The notes: generated by a model from the letters alone, not told the origin. Positions 40,218 to 53,917 are shown, numbered from the stretch's first letter. The stretch: DNA of 64,000 nt from Saprospira grandis DSM 2844 (GCF_000275825.1 NZ_JH719942.1:1060988-1124987); one strand, 5' to 3'. Numbers and translations: made by a program.

Positions 40218-42062
40218 TTAATTAATCTTTACTATACCACCTTTCACTTCGCAAAGTCCGCCGCCTTCCAATTTGGCCGAGGCAGAACCTTTGAGTTCCA
40301 TAGTGGTAGAGCCTTCTCCTTTAACGGCAAGGGCCTTGATAGAGAAGTTGGCGACCGCCTCCATTTTGGTATCGGACTTTGATTTTGTCTCGATGTTAAT
40401 GTCGGCCTCCATTTTAATATTTTTCTTGGCTTTAACGACAAAGTCGCCATCGGTCTCGAAGAGAATCCCGTTCTTATCCATCAACATTTTGTTGACGTTT
40501 ACGGGGTCTTCAATCAGGATCGTATCTTCATCATCATTGAGCTCGATAATCATCTTGTCTTCTGTAATGATCTTGACAATATTTTTGCCTGGATCATCTT
40601 GAAGTTCAATTCGGGTTTTTCCCTTATTGATAGAAATCGACTTAAAGATGTTGGGGTCTGCGGGAATATGCGTTTCCTCGGTCGTAATTCCTCTGCCGCT
40701 ACTATACATAGAGCCCAGAATGACCGGATAAGTGGGGTCTGAGTTGAAAAAGCCAACCACCACCTCATCCCCTACTTCGGGATAAAAAACAAAACCGCAA
40801 TCTTCGGTAGCATAATAATGCGCCATACGGGCCCAAACGCCCTCCCCGGCTTGGTCATCAATAATTGGGATATTGATCAGGACGCGAAATTCGCCATCGG
40901 GATCCGAGTCAATTTGCTTGACCACCCCATGTTGCAGCCCATGAATAGCGGGCAACATTCCGCCTGCGGGGCGAGAGCTAGCCGTAATATTGGCCTCCAT
41001 ATAAGGTTGAGGGTCCATACCCAAGCCCACCTCGGTCAACCATTGGCCTTTCATGACCGTATGGCGAATTCGGCTAACATAAGCATCGCCGACAAAGCGA
41101 GTTCCAAAGCCAAATAGCTCAATCGTTTTGCCCAATTCCGCCTTAGCAGAACCATAAAACTTGAGGCTGCCTCGGATACGAGAAAGATGTCCTCTTTGAT
41201 AAACAGAATCGGCCCAAGACTGAATCACATCCTTAGTCACTGGCGGAGTTGTTTTGACCGTATTTTTGGGTTCAATCACTGCCCCCAGCTTTCCAGAGTC
41301 CAAATCCCCCTGAGCATTTACAGCAGGTTTGGCTCCATCGGCTGTAACAATAGCCAAGTCGGTATGGCTCCAACAAGTAGCACCCACCTCCGTATATTGA
41401 TGAGTCGAATCGATATTCATATCCATCTCCACCAAATCATTTCCATAAGAAATGACCAGTTCAGACTTTTCGCTCACCGTAGGTTTCTTAATCGTAATTT
41501 CGCCATCATTGATAATGGTCACCAAGCTATTCACATCGGCCCGAGACTGGATAAAATCCCAGTCCGTACTCCAATACTGAATCAGTTTTTTGTGTGTGCC
41601 CGAGGTCCCTTCCACATCTGCAGAAAGTCCAGCTTCACTCACCACTGCCGAAATAATATCCGAGTCTGCCTGCTCATAAAACACCTTGTTTTTACGACCA
41701 ACCGTTAGTTTGAGCGCCTTATCCTTACACTTGAGCACCAAAGAGGCACCACTATAATTAGACTGCTTGATACCGTGCTCCACCAAAATCCCCTTATAAA
41801 GAGTTTCCTCCTTACCTGGGCCATACCCCGCTTTCACCTCTACCTCCTTGCCTGGTTCAAACATGGCATCTTCAGAGGTAGGAAACTTTTGCTCCCGAGT
41901 ATCTCCGTCCTTAAGTGTAATACGTGCATAAGGAATTTTATTCAGCTCCTTAACAATATCTACACTCTCCACGACCATTGTTTTAGGCACCTCAGTTCCA
42001 TCAATCAGTACAAGTACCGACAGATAGCCTTCGCCCATGCCTTTTACTGGAGAATCTGCCAT
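40218..42062 (-). CDS. VgrG/gpD-gp5-like central spike/baseplate hub protein
   Basis: 614 aa. Its N-terminal half resembles phage late control gene D / VgrG (...KAGYGPGKEETLYKGILVEHGIKQ...LVLKCKDKALKL...). It lies directly upstream of PAAR. Confidence 0.7.
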   Translation of the reverse strand: MADSPVKGMGEGYLSVLVLIDGTEVPKTMVVESVDIVKELNKIPYARITLKDGDTREQKFPTSEDAMFEPGKEVEVKAGYGPGKEETLYKGILVEHGIKQSNYSGASLVLKCKDKALKLTVGRKNKVFYEQADSDIISAVVSEAGLSADVEGTSGTHKKLIQYWSTDWDFIQSRADVNSLVTIINDGEITIKKPTVSEKSELVISYGNDLVEMDMNIDSTHQYTEVGATCWSHTDLAIVTADGAKPAVNAQGDLDSGKLGAVIEPKNTVKTTPPVTKDVIQSWADSVYQRGHLSRIRGSLKFYGSAKAELGKTIELFGFGTRFVGDAYVSRIRHTVMKGQWLTEVGLGMDPQPYMEANITASSRPAGGMLPAIHGLQHGVVKQIDSDPDGEFRVLINIPIIDDQAGEGVWARMAHYYATEDCGFVFYPEVGDEVVVGFFNSDPTYPVILGSMYSSGRGITTEETHIPADPNIFKSISINKGKTRIELQDDPGKNIVKIITEDKMIIELNDDEDTILIEDPVNVNKMLMDKNGILFETDGDFVVKAKKNIKMEADINIETKSKSDTKMEAVANFSIKALAVKGEGSTTMELKGSASAKLEGGGLCEVKGGIVKIN

Positions 42063-42098
42063 TTTTCTTTATTTATCTTCTAGTTAATTGAGTCAATT

Positions 42099-42287
42099 CT
42101 ATCGATTCATTTTGTACTCCCAAGCTTCCATTGCTCGGCGCACCGCTTCCTGAATCAGGATTTCTTTATCTTTTTCGGTCATGCCTTTTCCCTGTTCCTT
42201 TCCATCTTCTTTTCCCTGACCTTTGCCCCCAGCATTTTGTGCATTCACATTGGTGTTGACATTCATTTCTTTTACTGTTACTGCCAT
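42099..42287 (-). CDS. small hypothetical protein (62 aa) inside the contractile cluster
   Basis: ORF with a K/G/E-rich N-terminus and a helical C-terminus. Confidence 0.3.
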   Translation of the reverse strand: MAVTVKEMNVNTNVNAQNAGGKGQGKEDGKEQGKGMTEKDKEILIQEAVRRAMEAWEYKMNR

Positions 42288-42321
42288 AAGCTGTATATTT
42301 TTTTGCTGTTTTTAAGCAGGT

Positions 42322-42472
42322 TTTTTGGGGGCCTGCGGGCTTCGCCCGCCGCTATGTTGCAGGGCTCGCAAGCCTGCTCGGCCCTTCGCAAAATTTCGCT
42401 ACGCTCATTTTGCTTGGTCTGGCCCTACGGGCCACCCTTCCACAGCGCTAGGCCAAAAACGGCTTCGCTTAA
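42322..42472. repeat. GC-rich interspersed repeat inside the contractile cluster
   Basis: ttttgggggcctgcgggcttcgcccgccgctatgttgcagggctcgcaagcctgctcggccc... Confidence 0.6.
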
Positions 42473-43158
42473 TGAGCTACCACCTTAGAGAAAGCGTAAG
42501 AAAGTTCAATTTCTTGGACCAGCAAATCCTCTGAAGTAGAGTTGAGCGAGCTCAAACTCATTTTAGAGGGATAGGCAAAATTAAACTCCATAGAAATCAA
42601 AATTTGCGGCTTTCCAGATTTTGTCAAGTTGGGGTGCATTACATTTACCTGAATCCCCTTGAGCTTAATTTGCTCATTCCAAGAAGCCATGGCCTCAAAA
42701 CTTTCTTCACACCATTTGGTCCAAGGATCCGAGCTTTTAATGATATCGGGACGCACCAATCGCTTTAGCGTAATGGCCGAGTTTTTCATTTTGTCGGGCA
42801 AGTCAATGGGGTAATTGTAGCCCCCCTCATTATACGTCTTCTTTCCCTCCAAACCAATCTCCAAACCACTCACCTCAATAAAAGAGTTATGAATATTGGT
42901 ATCACCTGGCGTAGGCAAGCCATTAGCTCCGCCACCGTCTATCTTATTGATTGCCTTTTTCATCATTCCTCCAACCATTCCTCCTACAAAGGTATCTACA
43001 GCCCCTTTAGCAACTCCAGCCAAAAAGCTATTCCCTTCATGCTTCTGATCATACATCTGCACATCAAAATAGAAGGCAGGAATAGGTGAGGTCGTTTTTT
43101 CGTCCTCTTTCATGACTTCATCTAAGAAGCGCTCAAATGGGCTAATGGTATTATTCAT
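42469..43158 (-). CDS. tube-fold protein with a Gly-rich insertion (candidate tube initiator / Afp5- or Afp7-like, no LysM)
   Basis: PIPAFYFDVQMYDQ...SFIEVSGLEIGLEGKKTYNEGGYNYPIDLPDKMKNSAITLKRLV...ISMEFNFAYP parallels the gp19-like motifs of the two tube genes. Confidence 0.45.
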   Translation of the reverse strand: MNNTISPFERFLDEVMKEDEKTTSPIPAFYFDVQMYDQKHEGNSFLAGVAKGAVDTFVGGMVGGMMKKAINKIDGGGANGLPTPGDTNIHNSFIEVSGLEIGLEGKKTYNEGGYNYPIDLPDKMKNSAITLKRLVRPDIIKSSDPWTKWCEESFEAMASWNEQIKLKGIQVNVMHPNLTKSGKPQILISMEFNFAYPSKMSLSSLNSTSEDLLVQEIELSYAFSKVVAH

Positions 43159-43220
43159 ATCTTATTGGGATTATCTACAGCGATTGGTCTAAAAGTTAAT
43201 ATGCTAAGCGGTATTTTATC

Positions 43221-43736
43221 CTAACCGCCCACCTCCGTTTCAAAATGACGGAAGGCAAACTCCATTTCTTCTACAGCCACCTCATTTTCAGATTCGGCAT
43301 CAAAGTTAGAGGGAATATATTTTGTAATAAAGGCCTTTTCAAGTCGCCAGATAAACTGCGTCTCCATATTGTGGTCCAAAAGGTGGATCTCAATAGTTCG
43401 GCGAGAAGTATACTCTCGACTCACCGCTACCTGGTCAAACAAACGGCTCATTTGATCATCTTGAGAAAACGATCCTTTTTTAAGGGTAATACGGCTGTAC
43501 TGCAACATACCGGGCATGCGCTCCTTTCCAAAAAAGGGAGAATTACCATCGCGGTACTCAATCACCCCAATTTCAGCCTCCAAACCATCTACAGTTTGAA
43601 AAGACATTTCAATTGGACCAATAAACACCCGAAAGCTAAAGCGCGTTAGGGGCCAAGTCATTGTGGAATCTGAACTCATAACATCTATTTTTGAGAAAGC
43701 GGCTGCCCAAGTTAACTCGCTAAATACTAGGGCCAA
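43221..43736 (-). CDS. phage tail tube protein (gp19/Afp1-Afp5 family), paralog 2
   Basis: TRFSFRVFIGPIEMSFQTVDGLEAEIGVIEYRDGNSPFFGKERMPGMLQYSRITLKKG. Confidence 0.8.
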   Translation of the reverse strand: MALVFSELTWAAAFSKIDVMSSDSTMTWPLTRFSFRVFIGPIEMSFQTVDGLEAEIGVIEYRDGNSPFFGKERMPGMLQYSRITLKKGSFSQDDQMSRLFDQVAVSREYTSRRTIEIHLLDHNMETQFIWRLEKAFITKYIPSNFDAESENEVAVEEMEFAFRHFETEVGG

Positions 43737-43866
43737 GGCAAGATTTTTTTGGGCCTATGCCCTAAAAATAGCGCTTAGCGATACTGCCTTTCATTATCAA
43801 GGAGTTAAGGCTGCTTATAAGTTAAGCGCTTTAGGCTACTAAATTAAAGAAAAAATCTTGATAGCA

Positions 43867-43900
43867 CAAAAAAAACCTAGCAGGTTTTTACCTGCCAGGT
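43867..43900 (-). terminator. intrinsic terminator/attenuator immediately downstream of the major tube gene
   Basis: The minus strand reads ACCTGGCAGG-taaaa-ACCTGCTAGG (one G-U pair) followed by TTTTTTTT. Confidence 0.5.
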
Positions 43901-43927
43901 TTATTTTATTGCTAAGCTAAGTTAAAC

Positions 43928-44383
43928 TTATGCAGTTTCCATAGTCCACTCTTCGCAGCAGAACTCAAGTTCTTCGATAGCGACTTCAGAGTCAGCTTCT
44001 GCGTCAAAAGGAGTAGGAGTAAACTTAGTAACGAAAGCGTTGAGTAGCGTCCAAGTGAAAACGATCTCATCAGCTTCATTCATCAAGTGAATGATTACAG
44101 TACGGCGCTCAGTGTGTTGGTGGTCAACTGAAAGCTCTTTGTACCACTGATAGAGGTAGTCATCGCTCTGGAAAGTACCCTTCTTCAAGGTGATGTTGCT
44201 ATAAGACATCAAACCGGGACGCTTAGTCTTGTAGAAGTTGGTAGAGTTACCTGCACGGTACTCCATTACAGAAATCTCAGTCTCAAGACCTTCGATTGTC
44301 TGGAAGCCCAAAGTGTTGGGGATATTGTCAATCTCGATAGAGAAATAAAACTTAGGCAGTGGCCATTCTGTTGTTGCAGACAT
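43928..44383 (-). CDS. phage tail tube protein (gp19/Afp1 family), paralog 1
   Basis: PKFYFSIEIDNIPNTLGFQTIEGLETEISVMEYRAGNSTNFYKTKRPGLMSYSNITLKKG. Confidence 0.85.
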   Translation of the reverse strand: MSATTEWPLPKFYFSIEIDNIPNTLGFQTIEGLETEISVMEYRAGNSTNFYKTKRPGLMSYSNITLKKGTFQSDDYLYQWYKELSVDHQHTERRTVIIHLMNEADEIVFTWTLLNAFVTKFTPTPFDAEADSEVAIEELEFCCEEWTMETA

Positions 44384-44497
44384 GATATATGGCGTTTAAA
44401 AGTATGATCTAAATTTAAAATGTTGATGCTCTCCCGTTTGAGCCCAAGAGAAAGGCTAAAATGCTTTAGATAGTGATCTCTAAGTTAAGCACAAAGC

Positions 44498-45991
44498 TTA
44501 CTCAGCACCACCGGGCATTTTCTGCTGGAAAGTGATAACGATGAATTCAGCAGGACGAGAGATAGCTACTTTTACAGAAACCTTCATGTAACCATCTAGG
44601 ATATCCTGAGGAGTCATAGTTGTACCCAAACCAACCTCAACTTGGAAAGCCTGATCTTCAGTAGCACCTACCAAAGCACCTGCTTGCCACTGGCTACGCA
44701 AGAAAGAACCAATCATTGATTTAACTGCGATCCAAGTGTTAGCGTCATTGGGACGGAATACGAAAGGCTCACAAGCGAACTTCACAGACTGCTCCAACAT
44801 GATCATAGTACGACGTACGTTGATGTAGCGCCAGTCTTGGCTGTTACCGTCTAGCGTACGAGCACCCCATACCAAAGTACCTTTTCCTACGAAAGGACGG
44901 ATGGCATTGATTGCTTTACCGCTCAAGGGCAAGTTCAAGTCTTCTTGCTCAGTAGCAGAAATGTTTACAGTAGGTCCAGTTACAGAAGAAACTGATACGT
45001 TAGCAGGCGCTTTGAATACACCTACAGTGCTATCTACCAAAGAGTAAAGACCAGCTACAGCTCCAGAAGGAGGCAATACGTTCAACATATCGCGCATTTG
45101 ACCCAATACATCATTGTATACGGGGCTTACCGCCTTCATGATGTTGTGTACAGCAGTTACGTTAGCATCAGCGTCAGCCATCTTAGCGATTTCAGCTTTG
45201 ATCAACTCACCTTTTTCAGCTTTAACGAAACCAGCAGCTACGTTGTCATCTACTTCTTTGTTAAGCAACTCAACGAAACCTTCTAGGTTAGCAACATTAG
45301 TATAGTCAAACTCATCAGCTTGAACAACAGTAGCTTTCAACCAAGGGTAGTAAGCTGCACCGAAGTCTAGGAAGTTGTTGCCATAAGCCTCACGAGCGCA
45401 AGTTACAACATCATCATCTAGCATGCTGCGAGATTCGTTACCGTTCCATACGTCTAGGATAGCGAAGCGGCTACGAGTGTCAGCACCACAATGCTTCAAC
45501 ATTGCTTGTTGTACTGTACCACAGTCACCTTCTTCCAAAGAGATAGCATCGGGAACTACAAGCAAAGTAGGCTCTTGCTCCTTCAACAAAGCAGTGATAC
45601 CACCACCGTTCTCAGTACCCACTAGGGTCTTGGGAGAAACGTCGTCGTTGTATCCACCAACAGAAACGATGTAGCAAGTTCCACCGCCGTTAGCGTAGAA
45701 CATTTGAAGGCTACGGAACAACATGTAGTTACCGGCATCAACAGAAACGGTATAGTTGTCACCTTCAGCATCAACGTTGAAAGTAGTTTTGGGAGCACCA
45801 CCAAAGTAAGATAGGTACTCAACCAATGAAGTAATGCGCATTGGCGTGTTGGTCAAGTCGCGCTTACCAGCAGCGGCTCTCTCTGTGTGGCCAATGAAAG
45901 CAGGGATAGCAGTTCCTACTGCTACAACAGAATTCGAAAAGGCGCTTTTTTCTTCGATATAAACGCCTGGTGTTGCATACTGTTTTGCCAT
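44498..45991 (-). CDS. contractile tail sheath protein
   Basis: The N-terminal TPGVYIEE motif is a hallmark of phage and eCIS sheath proteins. 497 aa. Confidence 0.85.
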   Translation of the reverse strand: MAKQYATPGVYIEEKSAFSNSVVAVGTAIPAFIGHTERAAAGKRDLTNTPMRITSLVEYLSYFGGAPKTTFNVDAEGDNYTVSVDAGNYMLFRSLQMFYANGGGTCYIVSVGGYNDDVSPKTLVGTENGGGITALLKEQEPTLLVVPDAISLEEGDCGTVQQAMLKHCGADTRSRFAILDVWNGNESRSMLDDDVVTCAREAYGNNFLDFGAAYYPWLKATVVQADEFDYTNVANLEGFVELLNKEVDDNVAAGFVKAEKGELIKAEIAKMADADANVTAVHNIMKAVSPVYNDVLGQMRDMLNVLPPSGAVAGLYSLVDSTVGVFKAPANVSVSSVTGPTVNISATEQEDLNLPLSGKAINAIRPFVGKGTLVWGARTLDGNSQDWRYINVRRTMIMLEQSVKFACEPFVFRPNDANTWIAVKSMIGSFLRSQWQAGALVGATEDQAFQVEVGLGTTMTPQDILDGYMKVSVKVAISRPAEFIVITFQQKMPGGAE

Positions 45992-46046: not shown

Positions 46047-47174
46047 TTACAAATATACAATTATTTCGGAAAACACAGCATTCTCAACGTTAAAATCTGT
46101 TTTTAATATTGATTTTGCTGAATGGTTAGGTAAATCTGTAATCCATTCGATTCCATTTTTGCCTCTTTTGGTCCGAAGCTTAAAGCGGCTCAGCTGTTTT
46201 TCCTTAAAAGGAATGGGCGCTGAAGTTTTGACCAAAACGGCCAGTTCGCCAGAAGGCATAAGCACCTCCTCGGCCTCTTCAAAGTCTACTGTTTCGCCAG
46301 CTCGGCCATTATCGTAGGCCTCATGTCCTTTGTGCTGCCTATCCTCATTCATTTCTACTATATAGTAGTGCCAAGGTAAAGCCCTAGCAGGGAAATGGAT
46401 GTTATACTCTCTTTTAGACAACAACTTTCCCTGCTCATCAAAAAAGCGGTAAGGGCTGTCATCCTCCTTATCGATATAAATATCCACCACGCCCCAAATT
46501 CCGGCAGTTCCCTCAGGAGCCAAATAAAAAGTATACTCTTCCAAGCCGTCTAGCTGCAAAATATACTTTCCGGCTGGGGCATCAGGCATAACCACATCTA
46601 CATGGGCATTTTCGCCTTCCTGCTCCAAAAAGAAATAAGACTGGCCCAACTCATCTACCACCTCGATTTCCGCATCCTCCTCTTCATCATCAAATTCGTA
46701 GCGGAAAACAGGGCCTTCAAGTGCTAAGCGATCCATTTCAGAAACCAACTCATCATTAGACAAATTGCCCTCCTCATCTTCAATCTTATCTTCGGCCCGA
46801 TTTGTAAAGTGATAAATATAATCACCAAACTCATAAGGGAGGCCCGTATAGTTAAGGAAGAAAGCATCTTCTACCTTCATCCAAAAACTTAACTTTAAAG
46901 GTTTTTCCAAACTTTCTAAAGCCGGCCCTCCAGAAACTGTCTCGCCATAACCAATCAGCAAATTATTGCCCTCAAAGGCCGTTTTAAGCTGATTTTGCTT
47001 TAGGCGAAAAACCGTATCGGAAGTAGGACTAAGAACTACATCTTTACAGATCTGCTCATCAAAGTAATCGTGCAGGATCGCTATGTTTAATAGCTGATTA
47101 TAGCGAGTTTGGATGTTCAGCAACATATGATGCTCCATCGGATTTCCTCGCCTGCTAAATTTACGTCTCTTCAT
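46047..47174 (-). CDS. hypothetical acidic protein between the cap candidate and the sheath (eCIS-associated, function unknown)
   Basis: 375 aa, D/E-rich, no P-loop. The alternative start MEHHM is 12 codons in. Confidence 0.4.
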   Translation of the reverse strand: MKRRKFSRRGNPMEHHMLLNIQTRYNQLLNIAILHDYFDEQICKDVVLSPTSDTVFRLKQNQLKTAFEGNNLLIGYGETVSGGPALESLEKPLKLSFWMKVEDAFFLNYTGLPYEFGDYIYHFTNRAEDKIEDEEGNLSNDELVSEMDRLALEGPVFRYEFDDEEEDAEIEVVDELGQSYFFLEQEGENAHVDVVMPDAPAGKYILQLDGLEEYTFYLAPEGTAGIWGVVDIYIDKEDDSPYRFFDEQGKLLSKREYNIHFPARALPWHYYIVEMNEDRQHKGHEAYDNGRAGETVDFEEAEEVLMPSGELAVLVKTSAPIPFKEKQLSRFKLRTKRGKNGIEWITDLPNHSAKSILKTDFNVENAVFSEIIVYL

Positions 47175-47484: not shown

Positions 47485-48045
47485 CTAAATCTTGCGAATA
47501 GAAGGAATTTCTGGCTCGGGCTTTTTATGCTCAATCGGAATTGTTTTGAAGCGATAGAGCACCGAAGGCAAATACTTGGCCCCTACCCCATTCCAAACAT
47601 TAGAAATATCGCGAAAATCTGGCGATACCATTTCGGCCACCAAACGACTGAGGCTGCCCGAAAGTGCGGGCGTATTTTGCTCATTAAAAACGCCTTGGCG
47701 GCTTTGGAAAAAAGCGATCACCGAGCTAACAAACTTAAGGCCCTCCAAATAATTTTCATTGGTAAAATAGGCCGAGAACAACATATATATATTGACTTCA
47801 ACTGGGGGGGTCACCTTAGTAAAATTCCCTCGCTTATTGGGCTGATAAGTCGCCGTGCTGCTCTTATTGCGCTCGGCCTCAATGTTAATGATCGTCATCA
47901 CGATCTTATCGGCCTCTTGCACCGCCATCGAGCCATCGGCATTAACCAAATGAGAAATGATGACTTTCTCTTCTAAAATATTGTGTTTAGACTGCAAAAA
48001 GCGGTTGAGCTCGCCCACCACCGCCGTGACAACTTTATCAATCAT
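47485..48045 (-). CDS. DUF4255-like protein (candidate Afp16/Pvc16-type tube/sheath cap)
   Basis: Size ~186 aa and position at the 5' end of the cluster fit. The N-terminus MIDKVVTAVVGELNRFL resembles cap proteins as I recall them. Confidence 0.4.
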   Translation of the reverse strand: MIDKVVTAVVGELNRFLQSKHNILEEKVIISHLVNADGSMAVQEADKIVMTIINIEAERNKSSTATYQPNKRGNFTKVTPPVEVNIYMLFSAYFTNENYLEGLKFVSSVIAFFQSRQGVFNEQNTPALSGSLSRLVAEMVSPDFRDISNVWNGVGAKYLPSVLYRFKTIPIEHKKPEPEIPSIRKI

Positions 48046-48050
48046 AATCC

Positions 48051-48308
48051 TTATTCTTCTTCCTCCTCAGCTTCTGGCTGAGTTAGTGTTTTGATAGAAA
48101 GCGCAATAAAACGCATAATATAGATGCCCAAAAAGGAGGTGAAATAACCAATCAAGTACATCCAGAACACCCAGTTGCGCTCAATTTCACTCATATTCAC
48201 CACCTCTCTGGTATAACCAAAGAACCAAAGGAACACCACCGCCATAGGCAGCGAGACGATCAGGGCCACAATTAGCCAAATGAACTCTCTTGCGATTATT
48301 TTAAACAT
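48051..48308 (-). CDS. small two-TM membrane protein with an acidic tail
   Basis: Two hydrophobic helices. C-terminus EAEEEEE. Its stop is 6 bp before the cap-like gene. Confidence 0.4.
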   Translation of the reverse strand: MFKIIAREFIWLIVALIVSLPMAVVFLWFFGYTREVVNMSEIERNWVFWMYLIGYFTSFLGIYIMRFIALSIKTLTQPEAEEEEE

Positions 48309-48357: not shown

Positions 48358-48530
48358 ATTTTTTGGGGCTGCCCCTCCTTTCAGTCGGGTCGGGCTGTGT
48401 CGCAGCTCGCAGGTCTGCTCGGCCCTGCGCTTTTTTCGCTTCGCTCAAAAAGCTGGGTCTGGCCTTCGGCCACTGCTATCCATCCCTCAGCCTGCGGCGG
48501 CTTTGCCGCCTGCTCGCCGCAAAAGGACCT
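48358..48530. repeat. GC-rich interspersed repeat
   Basis: Same architecture as 3524-3686, with ...cctgcggcggctttgccgcctgctcgccgc substituted. Confidence 0.65.
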
Positions 48531-50706
48531 AAGGCAATCGTTTTTGTTGGCGCTTGAGGAGCATGCTCGCCACCCAAGTTAAGAGCCCGCCCAAAATGGT
48601 CCCTACTAAAAAGGTGGCCACCCAATTATTGAACAAGCCCAAATTATTGCCAATTAACAAAACAATTGTGGCAAAAAGGACCAAGTAAAAAATCCGGAAA
48701 GCGCCACTGTAAAACATCACATCTCGCACCTTCCAATCTAATAAAGAGAAGCCAAAACCTAGGGCCATAAAAAACAGCATGGCCAAAAGGGTGGAGAAGA
48801 CTACGCCATTTGTTTTTTTAATTTGGTAGGCAATCGTATAATGGATTTTATTGCTCTTGGCCACCTTATAGCGTTCAATTCGCTCTAGCTTAGTATTCCA
48901 GATCTCTCTAGCGGCAAATTTTTCTTCTAAAGTTCGCCAAAGCTCGGTATAACCATGATCATAGCTGAGGGCCCAAACGGCCACACCGCCCATTTTCTTT
49001 TCTAGTGCGAGGTCCATTTTCAGGCCCAAACTCGTCGAGTTATCAAAGTAAATTTCTTTCAAGGGATTGCCTAGGGTATCTACCAAAACGCCAATCATAC
49101 TATTGTGCATTTTATCGTAGCGCACCTTAAGGCGGTTGGCCCGGGCCAAATTCCGAATTTCAGAATAGGCCATATAGCCTTCAAAGCTCACGCCCTTATC
49201 GCCTTCTAGTGCCCAAACCGCACCGTGGTAAGGCAAGCCAAGGACCAAGCTAGTGCTGTGCTTGGCTCCAATTTCCTGAACATAGCGGTCAATGGTTTCC
49301 TCCAGACTTTCTTCCAGGCTATCCGATTCGGAGATAATGCCTTCTAGGCCAGAGAAAAGGTCAAATTCATGAATTTGAATGGTGTCCTGCTCTGGCTCAA
49401 ACAAAAACATATTGACGGGATTGCGGGCTGCATAATATTTGGCCAGTTCTGCCCGGCAGGCGGTTGCTTTTAGGGCTCGGCGCAAATAAGGGTCATCTCT
49501 TAGATCTTGAGTTGCTCGGATAATGCCCAAAACGGTCCCCAAATCATAGGTATTATACTCTAGGTTGGTAATTCCAGCTCTGAGGATATACATATTCAAG
49601 GTATCGAGCAACTGCTTTTTATAGCTATCGGTATGTAGTAGATCAATGCTTTTAATGGCAGAAGAAGTGCGGAGCACCGAATCGAGGCTAATATTTTTTG
49701 AGTAGCTCATATAGCTACGCTTCCATTTGGCTTCTGGCTTGAGCAAGGGCGTTAGGGGCACCTTACTTACCCCTGTGGGGCGGAGGTGGAAATTATAGGC
49801 AGAGACGATAAAAACGTCTACCCAATTTTGCAAAAAGCCTAAGTCATAGACCTTTTCGGGATCGCGTAGCGGCAAGCTCATTGCGATAGTAAAATTGGGA
49901 TTTTCTTCTCTTAGGGCAAAAGAAAGCTCTCGGACAAAGTCTTGAAAATCGGCTTTATACTCAATAGGGAGTTCTTCAAAGTTAATTTCTATGCCATCGC
50001 CACCTGCATAATTGAGCACCGAAATAAGGCTATCAATCAGGTTGCGTTGGACCACCTTGGCCGAAGTGAAGAAGATTTCGCTACGTTCGCCTCTATGGCA
50101 AGAAAGCGTAAGCATGGCTTTACAGCTATCTTTATGGGCTGTTTTTACAAAATCGCCATTTTTAAACTGATCAATGGCTTCAAAATCTTCATAGCCTCCG
50201 GTAAAGGGGTTAAGTTTATAGGCATAAAAAGCGGCATGAGTAAGTAGACCGAAATTATAGTTATGAAACTTATCGCCGGCCCAGGCGGGGTGCCAGCCCC
50301 AAACCACTAAATTTTGTTTACTGTTAATCTGAGTAGACTGTACATATACGGCAGGTTCTTGCTCATACATTTCATCAGCGCCCAAAGGTTTTTCGTATCG
50401 AGAGTAGCGGCCCTTAGCCATTACCTTTCGGTCAGTTTCCGTAGGCATACCCCACCAGTGGCGGGCTAGCGTTCTGAAGCGGGTTTGGCTCAGCTCCAAG
50501 ACCACCTTATTTTCAATAATGGTATCTTTCTCGCGCAGCTTTTCGAGTCGTTGCAAGCGCAACTCCGAAGAGTCTTCGGCTGTAGGTCTTAGGATTTGGG
50601 TACCGTTGAGCTCACTACCATCTAGCTGTGCCAAGAGCGTAGTAGTTGCCCAGGCAGAACAGAAAAGGAGGAGGAACAGGGTCCGTATATGAGTCCAGAT
50701 CAACAT
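48529..50706 (-). CDS. secreted GH18-like (chitinase-fold) protein with a C-terminal four-TM anchor, paralog A
   Basis: Signal peptide. GH18 strand motifs KAMLTLSCH, DGIEINFE (DxxDxDxE variant with E kept), VDVFIVSAYNFH, LVLGLPYHGAVW. Four C-terminal TM helices. Confidence 0.55.
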   Translation of the reverse strand: MLIWTHIRTLFLLLFCSAWATTTLLAQLDGSELNGTQILRPTAEDSSELRLQRLEKLREKDTIIENKVVLELSQTRFRTLARHWWGMPTETDRKVMAKGRYSRYEKPLGADEMYEQEPAVYVQSTQINSKQNLVVWGWHPAWAGDKFHNYNFGLLTHAAFYAYKLNPFTGGYEDFEAIDQFKNGDFVKTAHKDSCKAMLTLSCHRGERSEIFFTSAKVVQRNLIDSLISVLNYAGGDGIEINFEELPIEYKADFQDFVRELSFALREENPNFTIAMSLPLRDPEKVYDLGFLQNWVDVFIVSAYNFHLRPTGVSKVPLTPLLKPEAKWKRSYMSYSKNISLDSVLRTSSAIKSIDLLHTDSYKKQLLDTLNMYILRAGITNLEYNTYDLGTVLGIIRATQDLRDDPYLRRALKATACRAELAKYYAARNPVNMFLFEPEQDTIQIHEFDLFSGLEGIISESDSLEESLEETIDRYVQEIGAKHSTSLVLGLPYHGAVWALEGDKGVSFEGYMAYSEIRNLARANRLKVRYDKMHNSMIGVLVDTLGNPLKEIYFDNSTSLGLKMDLALEKKMGGVAVWALSYDHGYTELWRTLEEKFAAREIWNTKLERIERYKVAKSNKIHYTIAYQIKKTNGVVFSTLLAMLFFMALGFGFSLLDWKVRDVMFYSGAFRIFYLVLFATIVLLIGNNLGLFNNWVATFLVGTILGGLLTWVASMLLKRQQKRLP

Positions 50707-50751
50707 AAGTCTTAGGAATAAAATCGTCTGAATAAGAAATTGGGGTCTACA

Positions 50752-52638
50752 TTAAGGGGCTTTAGCTTGCTGCTTATCCACCAGATAGATGACGCCATAA
50801 GTAAAGAAGCCGCCAATCACGAGGCCGAGCAACAAAATAGAAGCGCCACCACGGAATAGGCCATAATAAGAGCCCACCATGAGCAGTAGTGCCGAGAACC
50901 AGCCCAGGTAGATCATTCTGAAGCGGCCATTGGCAAATAGGGTTCTACGCACCTGCTTATTAAAGAGGGCCATACAAAAGCCTGCGGAGGCAAAAATGGC
51001 CCAAAAGAGCAAGACGGCTAAAAGGGTAGCTCCCCAGCTTCTGGCTGCTTTACTGGCTGCGCCTAGCTTTTCGTAAGCTTCTAGCTTGGGCATTTCTATG
51101 GTGGTAAACTCTGAAGAGAGGGTATTCCATACATTATAATAGCCCAAATCGTAGCCTAGGGGCCAAACCCCTACTCCAGCCAAGCCCATATCATTGATAA
51201 ATTGATATTTGAGGCGAAGCGTACGCACATCATCATAGTAGAGTTCGGTACGTTCTATATCATCAATTTGTAGGGCGCCCCCTACTTTCTTAAAGATCGT
51301 ATCTTCTTTGGCCCAAACATAAGAGTAGTAGTTAGAGTCAATTCCTACGGCTGTACTATCTCGCATCACAAAATCATTTTGGATTTTGCTATAGGGCACA
51401 TAGCCTTCTAGATCAAAGCCACGGTTGCTACTTTTCCAGAGGGTTCCATAATTGGGCAGGGCCAAAATGAGTCGGTTGGTGGCATCTCGCCCAATAGAGG
51501 CAATATAATGCTCTACTGATGAGCGAATATCTTCTTCGCCAGAAGCGGCGGTAAAGTTAAGCGGTGCTCCTGGTTTCTTAATAATTTCGCCTGTTTTGGG
51601 GTCATTGTGGTAATCTATAGCCTTAATGATAAAGAAATCGACATGTTCTTTCATTTTGCCCAGATTAAACACCCCTTCAATATCTACAGCTGGAACGCTC
51701 ATACAAACCGCTAGGTCTGGCGAAACTGCTCTTAGGGTAAAGGAAAGTTGGCGAACAAACTTTAGGAACTCTATCTGGGCTAAGGCGGGCACATTCTCAA
51801 AGTTAATCTCTACGCCATCGGCCTTAGAGGTATCCATCAGGTAGACAATATTATCAATGAGGTTTTGCCTTTGCTTGGCATTTTCGGGAGCCAAGAAAAA
51901 AGCATTATTATCATAGCTATGGCTCGTAATACTAAGCAGCACCTTACAATCTTTGGCATGAGCGGTGGGCACAATGCCATTATCGGGATCATCGCCCCCC
52001 AAAAAGTCATGAATAACGGTAGAGTCTAGCGCTTCTCCAGTATAGGGGTCAATATCGTAGCCATAATAGGCAATGGCCGAAAGCAGGCCATAGTCATAGG
52101 TTTTGTAGGCATTGCCATTAAAGTGTGCATGCCAGCCAAAAACGGTGACAAACTGGCTAGCTGTTCCTTTGACCAATTTAGGCACTCGAAACTCAGAGCT
52201 ATCGATAGCGCTAATAGAATCTCTTTGGCGCTCAAAATCGAGTTTAGCGGCTAGGTCGGCATCGCTAGGGGTCATCCACCATTGGGTCAAGAGGTCAATA
52301 AAACGCTTTTTATTGTTGGGGTTTTCAATATCCCGCTTTGCGTTTTCGTCCTCAATCAGTTCTTCTAAGGTGGGGTCATATTCCCGTTCAAAGTCTTCTT
52401 TTTTAAAAGAGGGTAGCTGTTTATACTCATCGGATTTGGTCCGATAAGCATTTTTGACCGTTGTTTTTCGGCTTTCAAACTCATCGCGCAGGGCCCGAGT
52501 AGCTTTTTTCTCTAGGGCGTTGCCTCCGCCTTTTTTGGCAGTTTGGACGGCAATACGGCTTTGTCCCCAGCTATTGCTTGCCAAAAACAAGCAGCTAATC
52601 AGGAGTAATTTAGCCGTTATATGAATGAAAATTCGCAT
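50752..52638 (-). CDS. secreted GH18-like protein with a C-terminal four-TM anchor, paralog B
   Basis: KVLLSITSH, DGVEINFE, VDFFIIKAIDYH, LILALPNYGTLW. Same architecture as paralog A. Confidence 0.55.
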   Translation of the reverse strand: MRIFIHITAKLLLISCLFLASNSWGQSRIAVQTAKKGGGNALEKKATRALRDEFESRKTTVKNAYRTKSDEYKQLPSFKKEDFEREYDPTLEELIEDENAKRDIENPNNKKRFIDLLTQWWMTPSDADLAAKLDFERQRDSISAIDSSEFRVPKLVKGTASQFVTVFGWHAHFNGNAYKTYDYGLLSAIAYYGYDIDPYTGEALDSTVIHDFLGGDDPDNGIVPTAHAKDCKVLLSITSHSYDNNAFFLAPENAKQRQNLIDNIVYLMDTSKADGVEINFENVPALAQIEFLKFVRQLSFTLRAVSPDLAVCMSVPAVDIEGVFNLGKMKEHVDFFIIKAIDYHNDPKTGEIIKKPGAPLNFTAASGEEDIRSSVEHYIASIGRDATNRLILALPNYGTLWKSSNRGFDLEGYVPYSKIQNDFVMRDSTAVGIDSNYYSYVWAKEDTIFKKVGGALQIDDIERTELYYDDVRTLRLKYQFINDMGLAGVGVWPLGYDLGYYNVWNTLSSEFTTIEMPKLEAYEKLGAASKAARSWGATLLAVLLFWAIFASAGFCMALFNKQVRRTLFANGRFRMIYLGWFSALLLMVGSYYGLFRGGASILLLGLVIGGFFTYGVIYLVDKQQAKAP

Positions 52639-52681
52639 TTCGTTCTGCTTTTCAAATTCTCAATGGGGTGTCTAGCTAGCC

Positions 52682-53716
52682 TTATTCGGCTTTAAATACG
52701 GGGATTTTTTTCTGCAAAAAGATTTCTTGCACCCGTTCCCGCTTAATAATCTCCAAGATTTCGGCTCGTTTGAGCTGAAACTTGGCCACCTTAATATAGA
52801 CCCGAACTCCGGTGACCGTATTGAGGTTTCTGAAGCACATTTTGAGTTGCTTATAGGTTCCGGCTTTATAGGCGGGGATCACTCCAAAAGGAGCTGGGTT
52901 GAGGCCTTGTGTTCCTACATAATTATCGTTAGCTCGAGGGTCTTTAAAGTCGTATCGGAGGTTTCGGGCCAAAGAGTTGTTGGCCATAGGGAGGGTTTCG
53001 GTGAGGCCTAGTCCGTAGGCCATTAGGGGTTCAGAAACCTCTGCGGCAATCCAGCTAAGCTTAGGGTTGGCCTTGAGGTTTTGGTATTCTTGATGGGTTT
53101 TATCGCCAATGCCGATCCAGTAGACGGCATATTGATAATCGCCATCGAGTAGGGCTTCGGTGATACAGCTATCGGCTAGTGATTGATAATCGAGGGCGGG
53201 CTGTAGGTCCAGCTGAATTTCGGTAATATCTGGATAGGGGATAGTGTCGGGATAGGCGGTGCGCATGGTATCAATAGAGGTAGTGACCATAACATCATCG
53301 AGGACCAGGGAGTCTTGAAAAGACATGGCTGGAAATTTATAGATTTGCATCCGAAAGGTCCGGCCCAGTAGTCCTCTATTTTTCATCACAAAGTTGTGCG
53401 TTCCGTCTTTAGAGGCCATAAAAGACTCTCGTTCTAGGCTACGCACTTTTTTCATGCGCATTTTAAATTGGGTACCAGGCAATTCTACAATGAGGCGGCC
53501 CAATTTGCGGGCACCAATAGTTTGCATATCGATGACTACTTGTTCGCCTTGTTTGAGGTCATAGGAGAGCACCTTTTTTTTCCAGGCACCCAATTCTACG
53601 AGTTCATCAAAGAGGACAATTCGTTCGTCGTAGGAGCTTTGGGCCTGTAGGGGGCTATATAGCAGGCATAATAATAGGGCAAACCACTGCCAATGCAGCT
53701 TTTTGGGTATTCTCAT
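52682..53716 (-). CDS. hypothetical secreted protein (start at MRIPKK)
   Basis: Signal peptide ...PLQAQ. Confidence 0.4.
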   Translation of the reverse strand: MRIPKKLHWQWFALLLCLLYSPLQAQSSYDERIVLFDELVELGAWKKKVLSYDLKQGEQVVIDMQTIGARKLGRLIVELPGTQFKMRMKKVRSLERESFMASKDGTHNFVMKNRGLLGRTFRMQIYKFPAMSFQDSLVLDDVMVTTSIDTMRTAYPDTIPYPDITEIQLDLQPALDYQSLADSCITEALLDGDYQYAVYWIGIGDKTHQEYQNLKANPKLSWIAAEVSEPLMAYGLGLTETLPMANNSLARNLRYDFKDPRANDNYVGTQGLNPAPFGVIPAYKAGTYKQLKMCFRNLNTVTGVRVYIKVAKFQLKRAEILEIIKRERVQEIFLQKKIPVFKAE

Positions 53717-53917
53717 ATATCCGTAGCATCTAAGGTTCTGAAGCAAGTTTGGCAATTAAAAGTATAGTGTGTTGGCCAAAATTTGCTAGTACAAGCCCAA
53801 ATTAAAGCTTTTTTCAAAATTAACCTTAAAATTCTAGGGCCTTTTCTAAACAAAACCTTAAAGGTCTATCAATCGTCTACCTTTCAAAGTTTTAGGGCCA
53901 AATGTTTTCTAGATTTT

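What the first reader, a model, noticed from the sequence alone, without database searches (positions are those of the whole stretch)
48529..53755. Two paralogous secreted GH18-like proteins with C-terminal four-helix membrane anchors directly upstream of, and co-oriented with, the contractile-system genes
Both proteins (725 and 628 aa) have signal peptides and a TIM-barrel GH18 motif set (KxLLSxxxH, DG[IV]EINFE, VDFxxxxxY-FH, LxLxLPxxGxxW). The catalytic Glu is retained, but the DxD residues are changed to ExN. The domain is followed by a polytopic C-terminal membrane domain, an unusual architecture. They sit just upstream of the small two-TM protein and the cap gene. They may remodel envelope glycans for assembly or release of the particle, or act as pseudo-enzyme or lectin anchors.
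Basis: partly seen in the sequence, partly recalled or inferred. Interest (0 to 1): 0.5.

Follow-up and report, generated by a model that had tools for sequence, protein, structure and literature searches.

The report
Membrane-anchored GH18 pair of a contractile injection system
Two related chitinase-fold proteins, exported to the periplasm and held in the inner membrane by three helices, belong to a conserved accessory module of Bacteroidota phage-tail-like injection systems. They match the recently described SalCis20 membrane protein of Salmonella in architecture, and are good candidates for the unidentified envelope anchor of the Saprospira/Aureispira predatory T6SS.

Summary
Both ORFs (725 and 628 aa, minus strand) pass Pfam GH18 (E 2.9e-24 and 1.6e-26) and are 30% identical along their whole length. 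Both carry DG[IV]-E-I-N-F-E in place of DxxDxDxE. Each has an N-terminal signal and three hydrophobic C-terminal helices, plus a fourth juxtamembrane helix.

The architecture is not an oddity. Of 60 genome loci encoding GH18 + 3TM proteins, 59 proteins end in proline and 42 loci carry cap, sheath, tube or spike genes. None of 19 loci with TM-less GH18 relatives does (p = 2e-8).

A 2-TM protein of about 85 aa usually follows the gene, and a secreted GOLD-fold protein often precedes it.

Signal, SleL-like periplasmic fold, three TM helices and CIS-operon location all match SalCis20 (Nat Commun 2026). That paper proposes inner-membrane anchoring and peptidoglycan remodelling.

New here:
- The Saprospiraceae gene pair comes from an old duplication.
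- At least three lineages have lost the catalytic Glu, which argues for a structural or binding role over catalysis.
- The last residue is Pro in nearly all members.

An Aureispira MAG has the same gene order. This nominates these proteins for the unidentified T6SSiv trans-envelope complex. Function remains untested.

The parts
52682..53716 (-). C357: secreted partner protein (344 aa from the ATG at 53716; the longest ORF starts at a TTG at 53755). Signal peptide at 53642-53716, GOLD-like beta-sandwich at 53333-53620, then a second beta/alpha domain.
50752..52638 (-). B628: GH18 + 3TM protein, 'B-type' paralogue. Signal 52564-52638. Low-confidence helical linker at residues 26-160. GH18 barrel 51094-52161. 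DGVEINFE 51796-51819. Juxtamembrane helix plus three TM helices 50761-51033. Ends ...QQAKAP.
   Evidence: Pfam GH18 E 1.6e-26. AlphaFold barrel pLDDT mostly >90. Foldseek top hits are RobpsCRA, SleL and class V chitinases. Hydropathy. The Tyr of the GYD motif is Ile here (AID).
48529..50706 (-). A725: GH18 + 3TM protein, 'A-type' paralogue. Signal 50629-50706. GH18 barrel about 48907-50304, interrupted by an insert of about 140 aa at 49321-49749. DGIEINFE 49975-49998. Three TM helices 48532-48813. Ends ...QQKRLP.
   Evidence: Pfam GH18 E 2.9e-24 in two stretches. 30% identity to B628 over the full length. Three TM segments. The insert is shared with A-type orthologues such as P0028. GYD motif is AYN.
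48051..48308 (-). D85: conserved small inner-membrane protein with two TM helices (48219-48284 and 48093-48170) and an acidic C-terminal tail. It ends 5 nt before the cap gene.
   Evidence: and hydropathy. Family alignment across Saprospiraceae and distant loci (AREFxW, E.E.N and G.Y.MR motifs). HMM hits directly after GH18TM in 31 of 60 loci. No PHROG or Pfam family match.
47485..48045 (-). Cap/terminator gene (Pvc16_N / DUF4255; Alg16A-like). First core gene of the contractile system.
   Evidence: Pfam PF14065 E 1.5e-31.
46047..47174 (-). 375-aa gene in the position of the AlgoCIS cap adaptor Alg16B.
   Evidence: No Pfam family. Conserved after the cap gene in all related loci. Position matches Alg16B in AlgoCIS Supplementary Table 1. 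The assignment is by position only.
39297..45991 (-). Core contractile genes: sheath 44498-45991; tube paralogues 43928-44383, 43221-43736 and 42469-43158; small DUF5908/Alg6-like ORF 42099-42287 (assigned by size and position only); VgrG-like spike 40218-42062; PAAR-like ORF 39906-40196; gp25 39297-39713.
   Evidence: Pfam hits. Small ORFs. No TM-grade segment in any core gene checked.
35461..39231 (-). 1256-aa baseplate gene, placed as gp6/Cis11-like by its position after gp25.
   Evidence: No Pfam hit. PHROG 33902 E 4e-28. Same position as the 1313-aa gene in L006.
33336..34127 (-). Conserved 263-aa protein, a candidate fibre-like adaptor. It is separated from the baseplate gene by an IS transposase ORF (34254-35069, + strand).
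   Evidence: Homologues (E 1e-32 to 1e-55) directly follow the Cis11-like gene in L006 and L022, and lie within 2 kb upstream of GH18TM in L034, L081 and L037. Weak tail-fibre PHROG hit. Transposase Pfam hits.

Best explanation
**What the genes are.** A725 and B628 are two diverged copies of the CIS-associated 'GH18 + three TM helices' membrane protein. This is the protein kind described as SalCis20 in Salmonella.

**Predicted topology.**
- Each protein is exported by Sec, and its signal is probably cleaved.
- The chitinase/SleL-fold domain sits in the periplasm.
- Three C-terminal helices hold it in the inner membrane.
- A basic loop and a short tail ending in proline face the cytoplasm.

**Proposed function.**
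- The two copies most likely form a heterodimer. This would be the counterpart of the SalCis20 homodimer and of the tandem GH18-GH18-3TM fusions seen in other lineages.
- With the 2-TM protein D85 and the secreted GOLD-fold protein C357, they would form the envelope-side docking module of this Saprospiraceae contractile system (T6SSiv-like).
- The periplasmic GH18 domains would grip peptidoglycan glycan strands, and perhaps weakly cut them.
- The cytoplasmic loop and tail would contact the baseplate, perhaps through the 263-aa fibre-like protein.
- The machine would thereby be positioned to fire through its own envelope.

**Shown here:** fold, predicted topology, paralogy, conserved gene linkage, motif state.

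**Inferred:** heterodimer, peptidoglycan as ligand, docking to the baseplate, membership of one complex.
For: **Fold and family.** GH18 at profile and fold level, nearest to the YdhD/SleL/ChiW group.

**Topology.** Signal plus three TM helices. B628's TM1-TM2 loop and both C-terminal tails are net basic, which fits an N-out, C-in topology.

**Linkage to CIS genes.**
- 42 of 60 GH18+3TM loci carry at least two CIS gene families, against 0 of 19 TM-less relatives (Fisher p = 2e-8).
- Several 'negatives' in fact carry CIS_TMP, eCIS_core or the 263-aa gene.
- In L006, L020, L022 and L031 the module lies between the tube and spike genes.
- A cultured Persicobacter has the gene abutting the DUF4255 cap gene.

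**Conserved end.** The C-terminal residue is Pro in 59 of 60 TM-type loci, and in all 25 members of an unfiltered alignment.

**Catalysis is dispensable.**
- The catalytic Glu is replaced by Met, Thr or Ile in both paralogues of L005, in L034 and in the abundant L068 lineage. Architecture and linkage persist in all of them.
- In the window, each copy has lost one further active-site residue: Tyr to Ile in B628 and Asp to Asn in A725.

**Old, retained duplication.**
- The A and B clades are sisters, and each contains window, Saprospira and Aureispira sequences.
- Tandem GH18-GH18-3TM fusions exist elsewhere.

**Only envelope proteins in the cluster.** C357, B628, A725 and D85 are the only cluster products here with signal or TM segments.

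**Literature.**
- SalCis20 has a cleaved Sec signal, a SleL-like periplasmic domain and three TM helices. It forms a homodimer and localises to the membrane. It is proposed to anchor the system and remodel peptidoglycan (PMC13266070).
- Aureispira T6SSiv has an inner membrane-periplasm-outer membrane complex of unknown composition and no TssJLM.
- An Aureispira MAG has the same gene order, with a sheath 79% identical to the window's.
Against: **No experiment** bears on these proteins, and the SalCis20 role is itself only proposed.

**Homology to SalCis20 is not shown.** Its sequence and structure (9R9A) are not in the libraries available here.

**A catalytic role is not excluded.**
- The catalytic Glu is kept in 71 of the 77 TM-type sequences aligned, including both window copies.
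- Asn at the D3 position could still support substrate-assisted catalysis, as it does in GH85 enzymes (my own knowledge).

**AlgoCIS.** This close relative is never seen membrane-anchored. Whether it has this gene upstream of its cap gene could not be determined.

**Remaining gaps in linkage.** Some GH18+3TM loci show no CIS gene within 10 kb (L040, L057, L073, L077, L084).

**Weak method points.**
- Heterodimer, ligand and baseplate contact are pure inference.
- TM and signal calls rest on hydropathy and an AlphaFold model, not on dedicated predictors.
Confidence: 0.55

Rival explanations
1. Dedicated peptidoglycan-cutting enzymes. The GH18 domains would be active glycosidases of the SleL type. 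Tethered at the assembly site, they would open a local gap in the sacculus so that the tube can pass or the machine can insert. Catalysis would be the essential function, as with MltE or TagX for classical T6SS.
For: - The nearest solved relatives include the spore-cortex enzymes SleL/YaaH and YdhD.
- Glu281 and Asp274 are kept in at least 90% of members, and the Trp of the -1 pocket in about 99%.
- An acidic residue is usually present at D2 or D3: D-x-N or N-x-D across the family, E-x-N in the window.
- The SalCis20 authors propose this role.
Against: - The Glu is replaced by hydrophobic residues in at least three lineages that keep the architecture and the CIS linkage, including both copies in L005.
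- The window copies each lack a further catalytic-site residue.
- The Pro end and conserved cytoplasmic loop are not explained by an enzyme-only role.
Confidence: 0.2
2. Lysis cassette for particle release. D85 would act as a class-II-like holin, and the GH18 proteins as the wall-degrading enzymes that lyse the producer cell to free extracellular particles, as in R-type pyocin clusters.
For: - D85 is small, has two TM helices and a charged tail, and sits next to wall-hydrolase-fold genes inside a phage-tail-like cluster.
- eCIS release by lysis is the accepted route for Afp, MAC and AlgoCIS.
- Lysis genes embedded in tailocin clusters are well known (my own knowledge).
Against: - None of the four proteins matches a PHROG holin or endolysin family.
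- Viral fold matches are eukaryote-virus chitinases, not phage lysins.
- The GH18 domain would be exported constitutively by Sec and held permanently by three TM helices. Cytoplasmic, SAR-type or freely secreted lysins are not built this way.
- The catalytic Glu is lost in several lineages.
- One whole clade lacks the small 2-TM partner.
- No spanin-like gene was noted, though I did not search for one.
- The Aureispira orthologous system is cell-anchored.
- No release was seen for SalCIS.
Confidence: 0.1
3. Glycan sensor or trigger. The periplasmic GH18 domains would act as lectins that detect prey- or damage-derived muropeptides or chito-oligosaccharides. The signal would pass through the TM helices to the baseplate and fire the system.
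For: - The lectin-like state of the active site, and fold matches to chi-lectins (RobpsCRA, YKL-40, Ym1).
- Conserved cytoplasmic loop and tail.
- Lien et al. speculate that the envelope complex and antenna transmit a firing signal.
Against: There is no direct evidence, and it is not clearly separable from the anchor model. GH18-fold matches to lectins and to enzymes score alike.
Confidence: 0.1
4. Unrelated neighbours. On this view these are ordinary chitin- or glycan-degrading enzymes for nutrition, or injected effectors, that happen to lie next to the contractile genes.
For: - Bacteroidota encode many GH18 enzymes.
- TM-less relatives in Tenacibaculum, Aquimarina and others are not CIS-linked.
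Against: - Linkage holds across families and orders, with different gene orders.
- A signal peptide and three TM helices are incompatible with loading into the tube.
- Inner-membrane tethering is incompatible with extracellular polymer degradation.
Confidence: 0.03

Closest known systems
SalCis20 of the Salmonella enterica subsp. salamae CIS (PDB 9R9A; PMC13266070, preprint 10.1101/2025.06.01.657177)
   Same: - Sec-type signal.
- Large periplasmic domain with a SleL-like (GH18) fold.
- Three C-terminal TM helices.
- Encoded inside a CIS operon that also has a cap adaptor (SalCis16b) and an Afp13-like small fibre gene.
- The authors report homologues of like topology in clade Ib CIS genomes.
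   Different: - There are two diverged paralogues (30% identity) here, against one gene forming a homodimer.
- The proteins are 628 and 725 aa, against 775 aa.
- The genes lie upstream of the cap gene. SalCis20 appears to lie with SalCis13 at the far end of its operon, as read from the construct 'SalCis16a-SalCis20'.
- A conserved 2-TM partner and a secreted GOLD-fold partner accompany them here. The main text of that paper does not mention such partners.
- Sequence-level homology could not be tested.
SleL/YaaH and YdhD spore-cortex GH18 enzymes of Bacillus (4s3j, 4s3k, 3cz8; COG3858)
   Same: - Nearest solved folds and profile matches.
- Same F-E ending of the catalytic strand (xxIDFE).
- JGI names many family members 'spore germination protein YaaH'.
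   Different: - Those enzymes are soluble and carry LysM domains. They have no TM helices and no link to a CIS.
- The aligned YdhD keeps the Asp next to the catalytic Glu.
- The window proteins have E-x-N and have lost Tyr (B628) or Asp (A725) of the GYD motif.
Peptidoglycan-related accessory factors of classical T6SS: TagL (3 TM + OmpA-type PG-binding domain), MltE, TagX
   Same: The proposed logic is the same: an inner-membrane-tethered, wall-binding or wall-cutting accessory that roots a contractile machine in the envelope or lets it pass.
   Different: - The folds are unrelated (OmpA, lytic transglycosylase, L,D-endopeptidase).
- TagL has its TM helices at the N-terminus.
- No TssJLM partners are present here.
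CisA, membrane adaptor of the Streptomyces coelicolor CIS (PMC12237407)
   Same: A membrane protein encoded in a CIS cluster, absent from the purified particle, and proposed to recruit the CIS to the membrane.
   Different: - CisA is bitopic with a cytoplasmic N-terminus.
- No GH18 domain is mentioned for it in the abstract read here.
- It acts in a Gram-positive host, in a cell-death context.
Chi-lectins: catalytically inactive GH18 proteins (YKL-40, Ym1, RobpsCRA)
   Same: - Same fold, and top structural matches.
- Altered catalytic motif with a retained sugar-binding pocket.
   Different: - Those are eukaryotic soluble proteins that lack the catalytic Glu.
- The window proteins keep the Glu. 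Only some relatives have lost it.

Membership tests
Glycoside hydrolase family 18 (Pfam PF00704) | Profile match above the curated threshold, and a (beta/alpha)8 barrel fold | tested here: met
   86.8 and 94.2 bits against a cut-off of 29.6. AlphaFold barrel pLDDT mostly >90. Foldseek E 3e-16 to GH18 structures.
Glycoside hydrolase family 18 (Pfam PF00704) | Canonical catalytic motif DxxDxDxE | tested here: not met
   The window proteins have D-G-[IV]-E-I-N-F-E: D1 and the Glu are kept, D2 is Glu and D3 is Asn. Across the family, D2 and D3 vary (D/E/N/H and N/D), and the Glu is lost in some members.
Glycoside hydrolase family 18 (Pfam PF00704) | Supporting active-site residues: Tyr-Asp of the (M/G)YD motif and Trp on strand 8 | tested here: inconclusive
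   Trp492 is kept. B628 has Ile-Asp and A725 has Tyr-Asn, while most single-copy relatives have Tyr-Asp.
Glycoside hydrolase family 18 (Pfam PF00704) | Hydrolysis of a GlcNAc-containing glycan | not testable with these tools
   This needs enzyme assays on chitin oligomers and peptidoglycan.
SalCis20-like CIS membrane protein | N-terminal Sec-type signal | tested here: met
   Hydrophobic N-termini with SWG|Q and LLA|Q (or AWA|T) sites. This is a prediction only.
SalCis20-like CIS membrane protein | Periplasmic domain with a SleL-like hydrolase fold | tested here: met
   SleL entries 4s3j and 4s3k rank 2-4 in Foldseek. Profile E 3e-22 to 4s3j.
SalCis20-like CIS membrane protein | Three C-terminal TM helices | tested here: met
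   Hydropathy. AlphaFold helices 536-559, 561-591 and 599-626. The same holds in 60 related loci.
SalCis20-like CIS membrane protein | Encoded within a CIS operon of the AlgoCIS/T6SSiv group (clade Ib) | tested here: inconclusive
   Co-oriented with and adjacent to the cap, sheath, tube, spike and gp25 genes. I did not test the clade by phylogeny. The sheath is 79% identical to that of an Aureispira MAG, and Lien et al. group Aureispira and Saprospira with T6SSiv and AlgoCIS.
SalCis20-like CIS membrane protein | Sequence or structure homology to SalCis20 itself (PDB 9R9A) | not testable with these tools
   9R9A is absent from the PDB sequence copy and from the Foldseek library. No sequence is given in the paper text held here, and no supplements are held.
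Holin-endolysin lysis cassette of phages and tailocins | Membership of a known holin or endolysin family | tested here: not met
   No functional PHROG hit for D85, A725, B628 or C357. No phage GH18 lysin among the BFVD matches.
Holin-endolysin lysis cassette of phages and tailocins | Lysin that is cytoplasmic, SAR-type or freely secreted, with a conserved catalytic residue | tested here: not met
   Three stable TM helices at the C-terminus. Catalytic Glu lost in at least three lineages.

The most novel reading that the evidence does not exclude
[quoted passage not shown] That complex has inner-membrane, periplasmic and outer-membrane-proximal parts, and its composition is not identified in the papers read here.

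On this reading, a catalytically decayed GH18 heterodimer serves as the peptidoglycan-embedded periplasmic ring. The conserved Pro-ended cytoplasmic tail serves as the baseplate docking site. This would be a new type of T6SS membrane complex, unrelated to TssJLM or TssNOPQR and built from a domesticated wall hydrolase.
Probability: 0.3. Interest if true: 0.75.

Novelty: new member of a known kind. Interest (0 to 1): 0.5.

Why it matters
How phage-tail-like injection systems outside the classical T6SS attach to and fire through the producer's envelope is an open question. The trans-envelope complex of the ixotrophy T6SSiv has no assigned proteins in the papers read here, and the role of SalCis20 is only proposed.

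This locus, with about 60 related loci, contributes four things:
- The GH18 + 3TM protein is a widespread, tightly linked accessory of Bacteroidota CIS.
- It usually travels with a 2-TM protein, and often with a secreted GOLD-fold protein.
- Catalysis is dispensable in several lineages.
- The last residue is Pro in nearly all members.

Together these give a short, concrete list of genes and residues to test in Aureispira, Saprospira or Salmonella.

Tried and rejected
1. **AlgoCIS test.** I tried to learn whether AlgoCIS, a proven free extracellular system, has this gene.
   - Its published 18-gene table starts at the cap gene and lists no GH18. The gene upstream of the cap is not reported.
   - A protein search with the 'Algoriphagus sp.' MAG homologue returned only near-identical freshwater metagenome proteins and no named A. 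machipongonensis entry. That search was poorly chosen.
2. **Direct comparison with SalCis20 (9R9A).**
   - It is absent from the PDB sequence copy and from the Foldseek library.
   - No supplements are held for the paper.
   - A 775-aa hit in the representative search proved to be a T9SS-secreted GH18, not SalCis20.
3. **AlphaFold-DB fold search.** The library was not available.
4. **Lysis-cassette idea.** Nothing was found in PHROGs, NCBIfam or the viral fold library.
5. **Sigma-70 promoter and terminator scan.** The counts were close to the shuffled expectation, and the scan is not suited to Bacteroidota promoters. A search for the TAnnTTTG motif gave single hits upstream of C357 (53822) and of the sheath gene (46033). 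I treat these as suggestive only.
6. **Plasmid collection.** It gave one useful cultured example, Persicobacter pPP2, and otherwise generic GH18 hits.
7. **Lipoprotein double anchor.** Many single-copy relatives have lipobox signals. The window proteins' orthologues lack the Cys, so I did not apply this idea here.
8. **Effector or nutritional chitinase.** Rejected on topology and linkage.

Full report
**1. What is in the sequence**

The minus strand of 46-54 kb carries a co-oriented gene row:
- C357 (52682-53716/53755)
- B628 (50752-52638)
- A725 (48529-50706)
- D85 (48051-48308)
- Pvc16_N cap (47485-48045)
- a 375-aa gene in the position of the AlgoCIS cap adaptor Alg16B (46047-47174)
- sheath (44498-45991)
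- three gp19-type tube genes
- a VgrG-like spike (40218-42062), a PAAR-like ORF and gp25 (39297-39713)
- a 1256-aa baseplate gene (35461-39231)

The gaps are 43 nt (C357 to B628), 45 nt (B628 to A725), 220 nt (A725 to D85) and 5 nt (D85 to cap). The 220-nt gap, the 310-nt gap after the cap gene and the region upstream of C357 hold copies of a GC-rich repeat.

T9SS sorting domains and SprB repeats in neighbouring genes mark a Bacteroidota genome. The nearest relatives are Saprospira MAGs, with B628 56% and the sheath 85% identical. An Aureispira MAG follows, with B628 40% and the sheath 79% identical.

**2. Check of the observation**

- Both proteins pass Pfam GH18 well above threshold (E 2.9e-24 and 1.6e-26).
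- They are 30% identical over the whole length, including the membrane region.
- The catalytic strand reads DGIEINFE in A725 and DGVEINFE in B628. It aligns with DGCDIDWE of a solved chitinase.
- Hydropathy gives an N-terminal signal-like segment in both proteins. It finds three TM-grade segments at the C-terminus of A725 and two in B628, whose middle segment is weaker.
- The AlphaFold model of B628 has mean pLDDT 77.8, with the barrel mostly above 90. It shows a TIM barrel with the usual alpha+beta insertion, then an amphipathic helix (520-534) and three long hydrophobic helices.
- B628's TM1-TM2 loop and both C-terminal tails are net basic. This fits a periplasmic GH18 domain and a cytoplasmic C-terminus.
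- Foldseek's best solved matches are a chitinase-like lectin (RobpsCRA), the spore-cortex enzymes SleL, and class V chitinases.
- At profile level the best matches are ChiW, YdhD and a Desulfitobacterium GH18.

**3. The architecture is a conserved CIS accessory**

A protein search found 93 relatives. Their contigs show the same row in close relatives: secreted protein, GH18, GH18, 85-aa protein, cap, adaptor, sheath (L001, L002, L005).

Relatives at 28-31% identity show a single GH18 + 3TM gene followed by a small TM protein. It lies either directly before the cap gene (L008) or between the tube and spike genes (L006).

A scan of one genome per species found 554 relatives, and I analysed the best 80 with HMMs built from the window and five loci:
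- 60 loci encode GH18 proteins with at least two C-terminal TM segments.
- 59 of these proteins end in Pro. The exception ends LPK.
- 42 of the 60 loci carry at least two CIS gene families in the fetched stretch.
- 19 loci encode shorter, TM-less GH18 relatives (Tenacibaculum, Aquimarina, Lacinutrix and others). None of these has a CIS gene, and only one of them ends in Pro.
- Fisher p = 2e-8 for all loci, and 7e-7 for loci with at least 5 kb on both sides.

Several apparent negatives still carry CIS genes that my HMMs did not cover:
- L068 and its twins have a CIS tape-measure gene.
- L050 has an eCIS_core protein.
- L034 has the 263-aa protein described in section 4.

A cultured Persicobacter megaplasmid has the gene overlapping the start of the DUF4255 cap gene. 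RefSeq calls it simply 'glycosyl hydrolase family 18 protein'.

In a library of 1.84 billion representatives the profile finds 1,882 proteins at E <= 1e-30. About 100 of the best 150 align through to the C-terminal end of the profile.

**4. Partners**

*D85.* This protein has two TM helices and conserved motifs (AREFxW, E.E.N, G.Y.MR) shared with distant loci. Its HMM hits the ORF right after GH18TM in 31 of 60 loci.
- It is absent from the clade whose motif is DGV-N-x-D-FE. There the GH18 gene abuts the cap gene.
- It is present in the DGV-D-x-N-FE clade.

- Its family occupies the slot before GH18TM in the Saprospiraceae. It hits that slot more weakly in 12 distant loci.

*Envelope proteins.* Among the cluster products in the window, only C357, B628, A725 and D85 have signal or TM segments.

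*The 263-aa protein.* The product of 33336-34127 has homologues right after the Cis11-like gene in L006 and L022. Homologues also lie just upstream of GH18TM in L034, L081 and L037.

**5. Enzyme or scaffold?**

Across 77 TM-type sequences:
- Asp274, Gly275 and Phe280 are nearly invariant.
- Glu281 is kept in 71 of 77, and the pocket Trp492 in 76 of 77.
- The D2 and D3 positions vary: E/D/N/H/T at D2 and N/D at D3.

The Glu is replaced in four sets of sequences:
- Met in the B-type copy of L005.
- Thr in the A-type copy of L005.
- Met in L034.
- Ile in the L068 lineage.

The L068 lineage is abundant, with more than 100 near-identical database entries, so this is not a decaying pseudogene. All these proteins keep the signal, the fold, the three TM helices, the terminal Pro and, where flanks allow, the CIS linkage.

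In the window each copy has lost one more active-site residue:
- Tyr to Ile in B628.
- Asp to Asn in A725.

I read this as follows:
- The conserved, selected function is structural or glycan-binding.
- Catalysis is optional.
- The window pair is probably weakly active or inactive.

An Asn at D3 is not by itself proof of inactivity, because GH85 enzymes use Asn in that role (my own knowledge).

**6. The duplication**

- In a neighbour-joining tree the A-type and B-type clades are sisters. Each contains the window, Saprospira, Aureispira and L005 sequences.
- The duplication therefore predates the split of these genera, and both copies have been kept.
- Other lineages carry two GH18 domains fused before one 3TM anchor (P0231, L078, L082).
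- SalCis20 is a homodimer.

Two GH18 domains per unit therefore seems to be the rule, which suggests an A-B heterodimer here. This is an inference.

**7. Comparison with what is known**

No mention of GH18, chitinase or transmembrane accessory proteins was found in:
- the AlgoCIS paper
- the two eCIS surveys, apart from an unrelated 'chitinase?' toxin
- a metagenome survey
- the Aureispira preprint

The 2026 Salmonella SalCIS paper describes SalCis20 as follows:
- It has a Sec signal cleaved at residue 42.
- It has a periplasmic SleL-like fold and three TM helices.
- Its cryo-EM structure is a homodimer.
- Its membrane localisation depends on the signal.
- Homologues of like topology occur in clade Ib genomes.
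- Its proposed roles are wall remodelling and inner-membrane anchoring, through the fibre-like SalCis13 to SalCis11.

The window proteins meet every architectural feature of that description. Direct homology could not be tested, because 9R9A is not in the libraries here. I therefore file them as new members of this recently described kind.

As far as the papers I could read go, the following points are new:
- the ancient paralogue pair
- the 2-TM and GOLD-fold partners
- the near-invariant terminal Pro
- the repeated loss of the catalytic Glu

**8. Mechanism and rivals**

The best-supported reading is an envelope docking module with a peptidoglycan-binding GH18 heterodimer (confidence 0.55).

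The rivals are:
- an essential wall-cutting enzyme (0.2)
- a lysis cassette for particle release (0.1)
- a glycan sensor or trigger (0.1)
- unrelated neighbours (0.03)

The lysis idea lacks any family match. It also fits poorly with permanent three-helix tethering and with loss of the Glu.

The most novel reading not excluded is that these proteins form the unassigned trans-envelope complex of the ixotrophy T6SSiv. Two observations favour it:
- Aureispira has no TssJLM.
- An Aureispira MAG has the same gene order.

**9. Limits**

- Everything functional is inferred.
- Signal and TM calls come from hydropathy and one AlphaFold model.
- My HMMs were built from 3-6 sequences, and their E-values refer to the ORFs of about 90 loci.
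- MAG taxonomic labels are sometimes wrong. For example, the same lineage is labelled Algoriphagus, Spirosoma and Limnohabitans.
- The clade Ib assignment was not tested by my own phylogeny.

Noticed in passing
window 34254-35069 (+), between 35461-39231 and 33336-34127: An IS4/IS5-family transposase ORF (DUF4096 + DDE_Tnp_1) sits between the Cis11-like baseplate gene and the conserved 263-aa gene. In L006 and L022 that 263-aa gene follows Cis11 directly. No Cis12, tape-measure or ATPase gene follows in the window. The Aureispira preprint reports IS insertions that switch the T6SS off, so this cluster may be interrupted or rearranged.
   Followed up: partly
window 48356-48430, 53914-53988, 47364-47456, 54331-54427, 53939-53986/54388-54435: A family of GC-rich (about 55-60% GC) repeats lies in the intergenic gaps of the operon: between A725 and D85, after the cap gene, and upstream of C357. 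Copies occur in direct and inverted orientation and are 76-95% alike. They may be REP/MITE-like elements or RNA-structure elements. Spurious + strand ORFs with similar translations come from them.
   Followed up: partly
window 28208-31567 (-); L068 12092-15292; L077 4542-8042: A 1119-aa nSTAND1 NTPase with WD40 repeats lies about 4 kb beyond the CIS genes. nSTAND1 proteins also flank the GH18+3TM gene in two unrelated loci. This suggests a recurrent regulator or sensor associated with these systems.
   Followed up: partly
P0231 (967 aa), P0232 (952 aa), L078 9677-12523, L082 9677-12517: Some lineages encode tandem GH18-GH18 fusions with a single 3TM anchor and a terminal Pro. This is a third way, besides the homodimer and the paralogue pair, of having two GH18 domains per unit.
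   Followed up: partly
L005 10001-11911 and 12173-14296; L034 9980-11842; L068, L075, L086 9626-11359: The catalytic Glu is replaced by Met, Thr or Ile in these CIS-linked GH18+3TM proteins, while the rest of the architecture is kept. In L005 both paralogues are affected.
   Followed up: yes
L028, L033, L035, L036, L042, L047, L052, L064, L068, L072, L074; P0029, P0030, P0048, P0056, P0084: Many single-copy family members have lipoprotein-type signals, with a Cys after a lipobox-like sequence followed by polar residues. They may be anchored at both ends: an N-terminal lipid and the C-terminal three TM helices. The Saprospiraceae copies mostly have ordinary signals ending A|Q.
   Followed up: partly
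loci L021, L023, L025, L029, L030, L032, L038, L043, L062 versus L006, L019, L022, L026, L033, L035 and others: There is a motif swap between clades. DGV-N-x-D-FE members lack the small 2-TM partner and abut the cap gene. DGV-D-x-N-FE members have the partner. In both clades an Asp is present at D2 or D3. The window has E-x-N.
   Followed up: partly
window 53716 versus 53755: The longest ORF of C357 starts at a TTG at 53755. The 99%-identical database protein is 346 aa, and the signal peptide begins at the ATG at 53716. The real start is therefore probably downstream of the finding's end coordinate.
   Followed up: yes
window 7957-9991 and 19985-23070: Two tandem paralogue arrays lie elsewhere in the window: three 180-aa proteins with T9SS C-terminal sorting domains, and several DUF6976 proteins of about 327 aa next to a protoglobin-STAS protein (19106-19978).
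   Followed up: no
window 54521-57205 (-): An 894-aa SprB-repeat protein with a T9SS sorting tail lies immediately upstream of the module. It is separated from it by about 800 nt containing two terminator-like hairpins (54485-54460 and 54266-54245). It is probably a separate transcription unit.
   Followed up: no
window 43221-43736, 42469-43158; L001, L002, L005, L012 second tube genes: The second gp19-type tube gene is 171 aa here. In Saprospira-like relatives it is 473-815 aa, so those carry a large extension on a tube paralogue.
   Followed up: no
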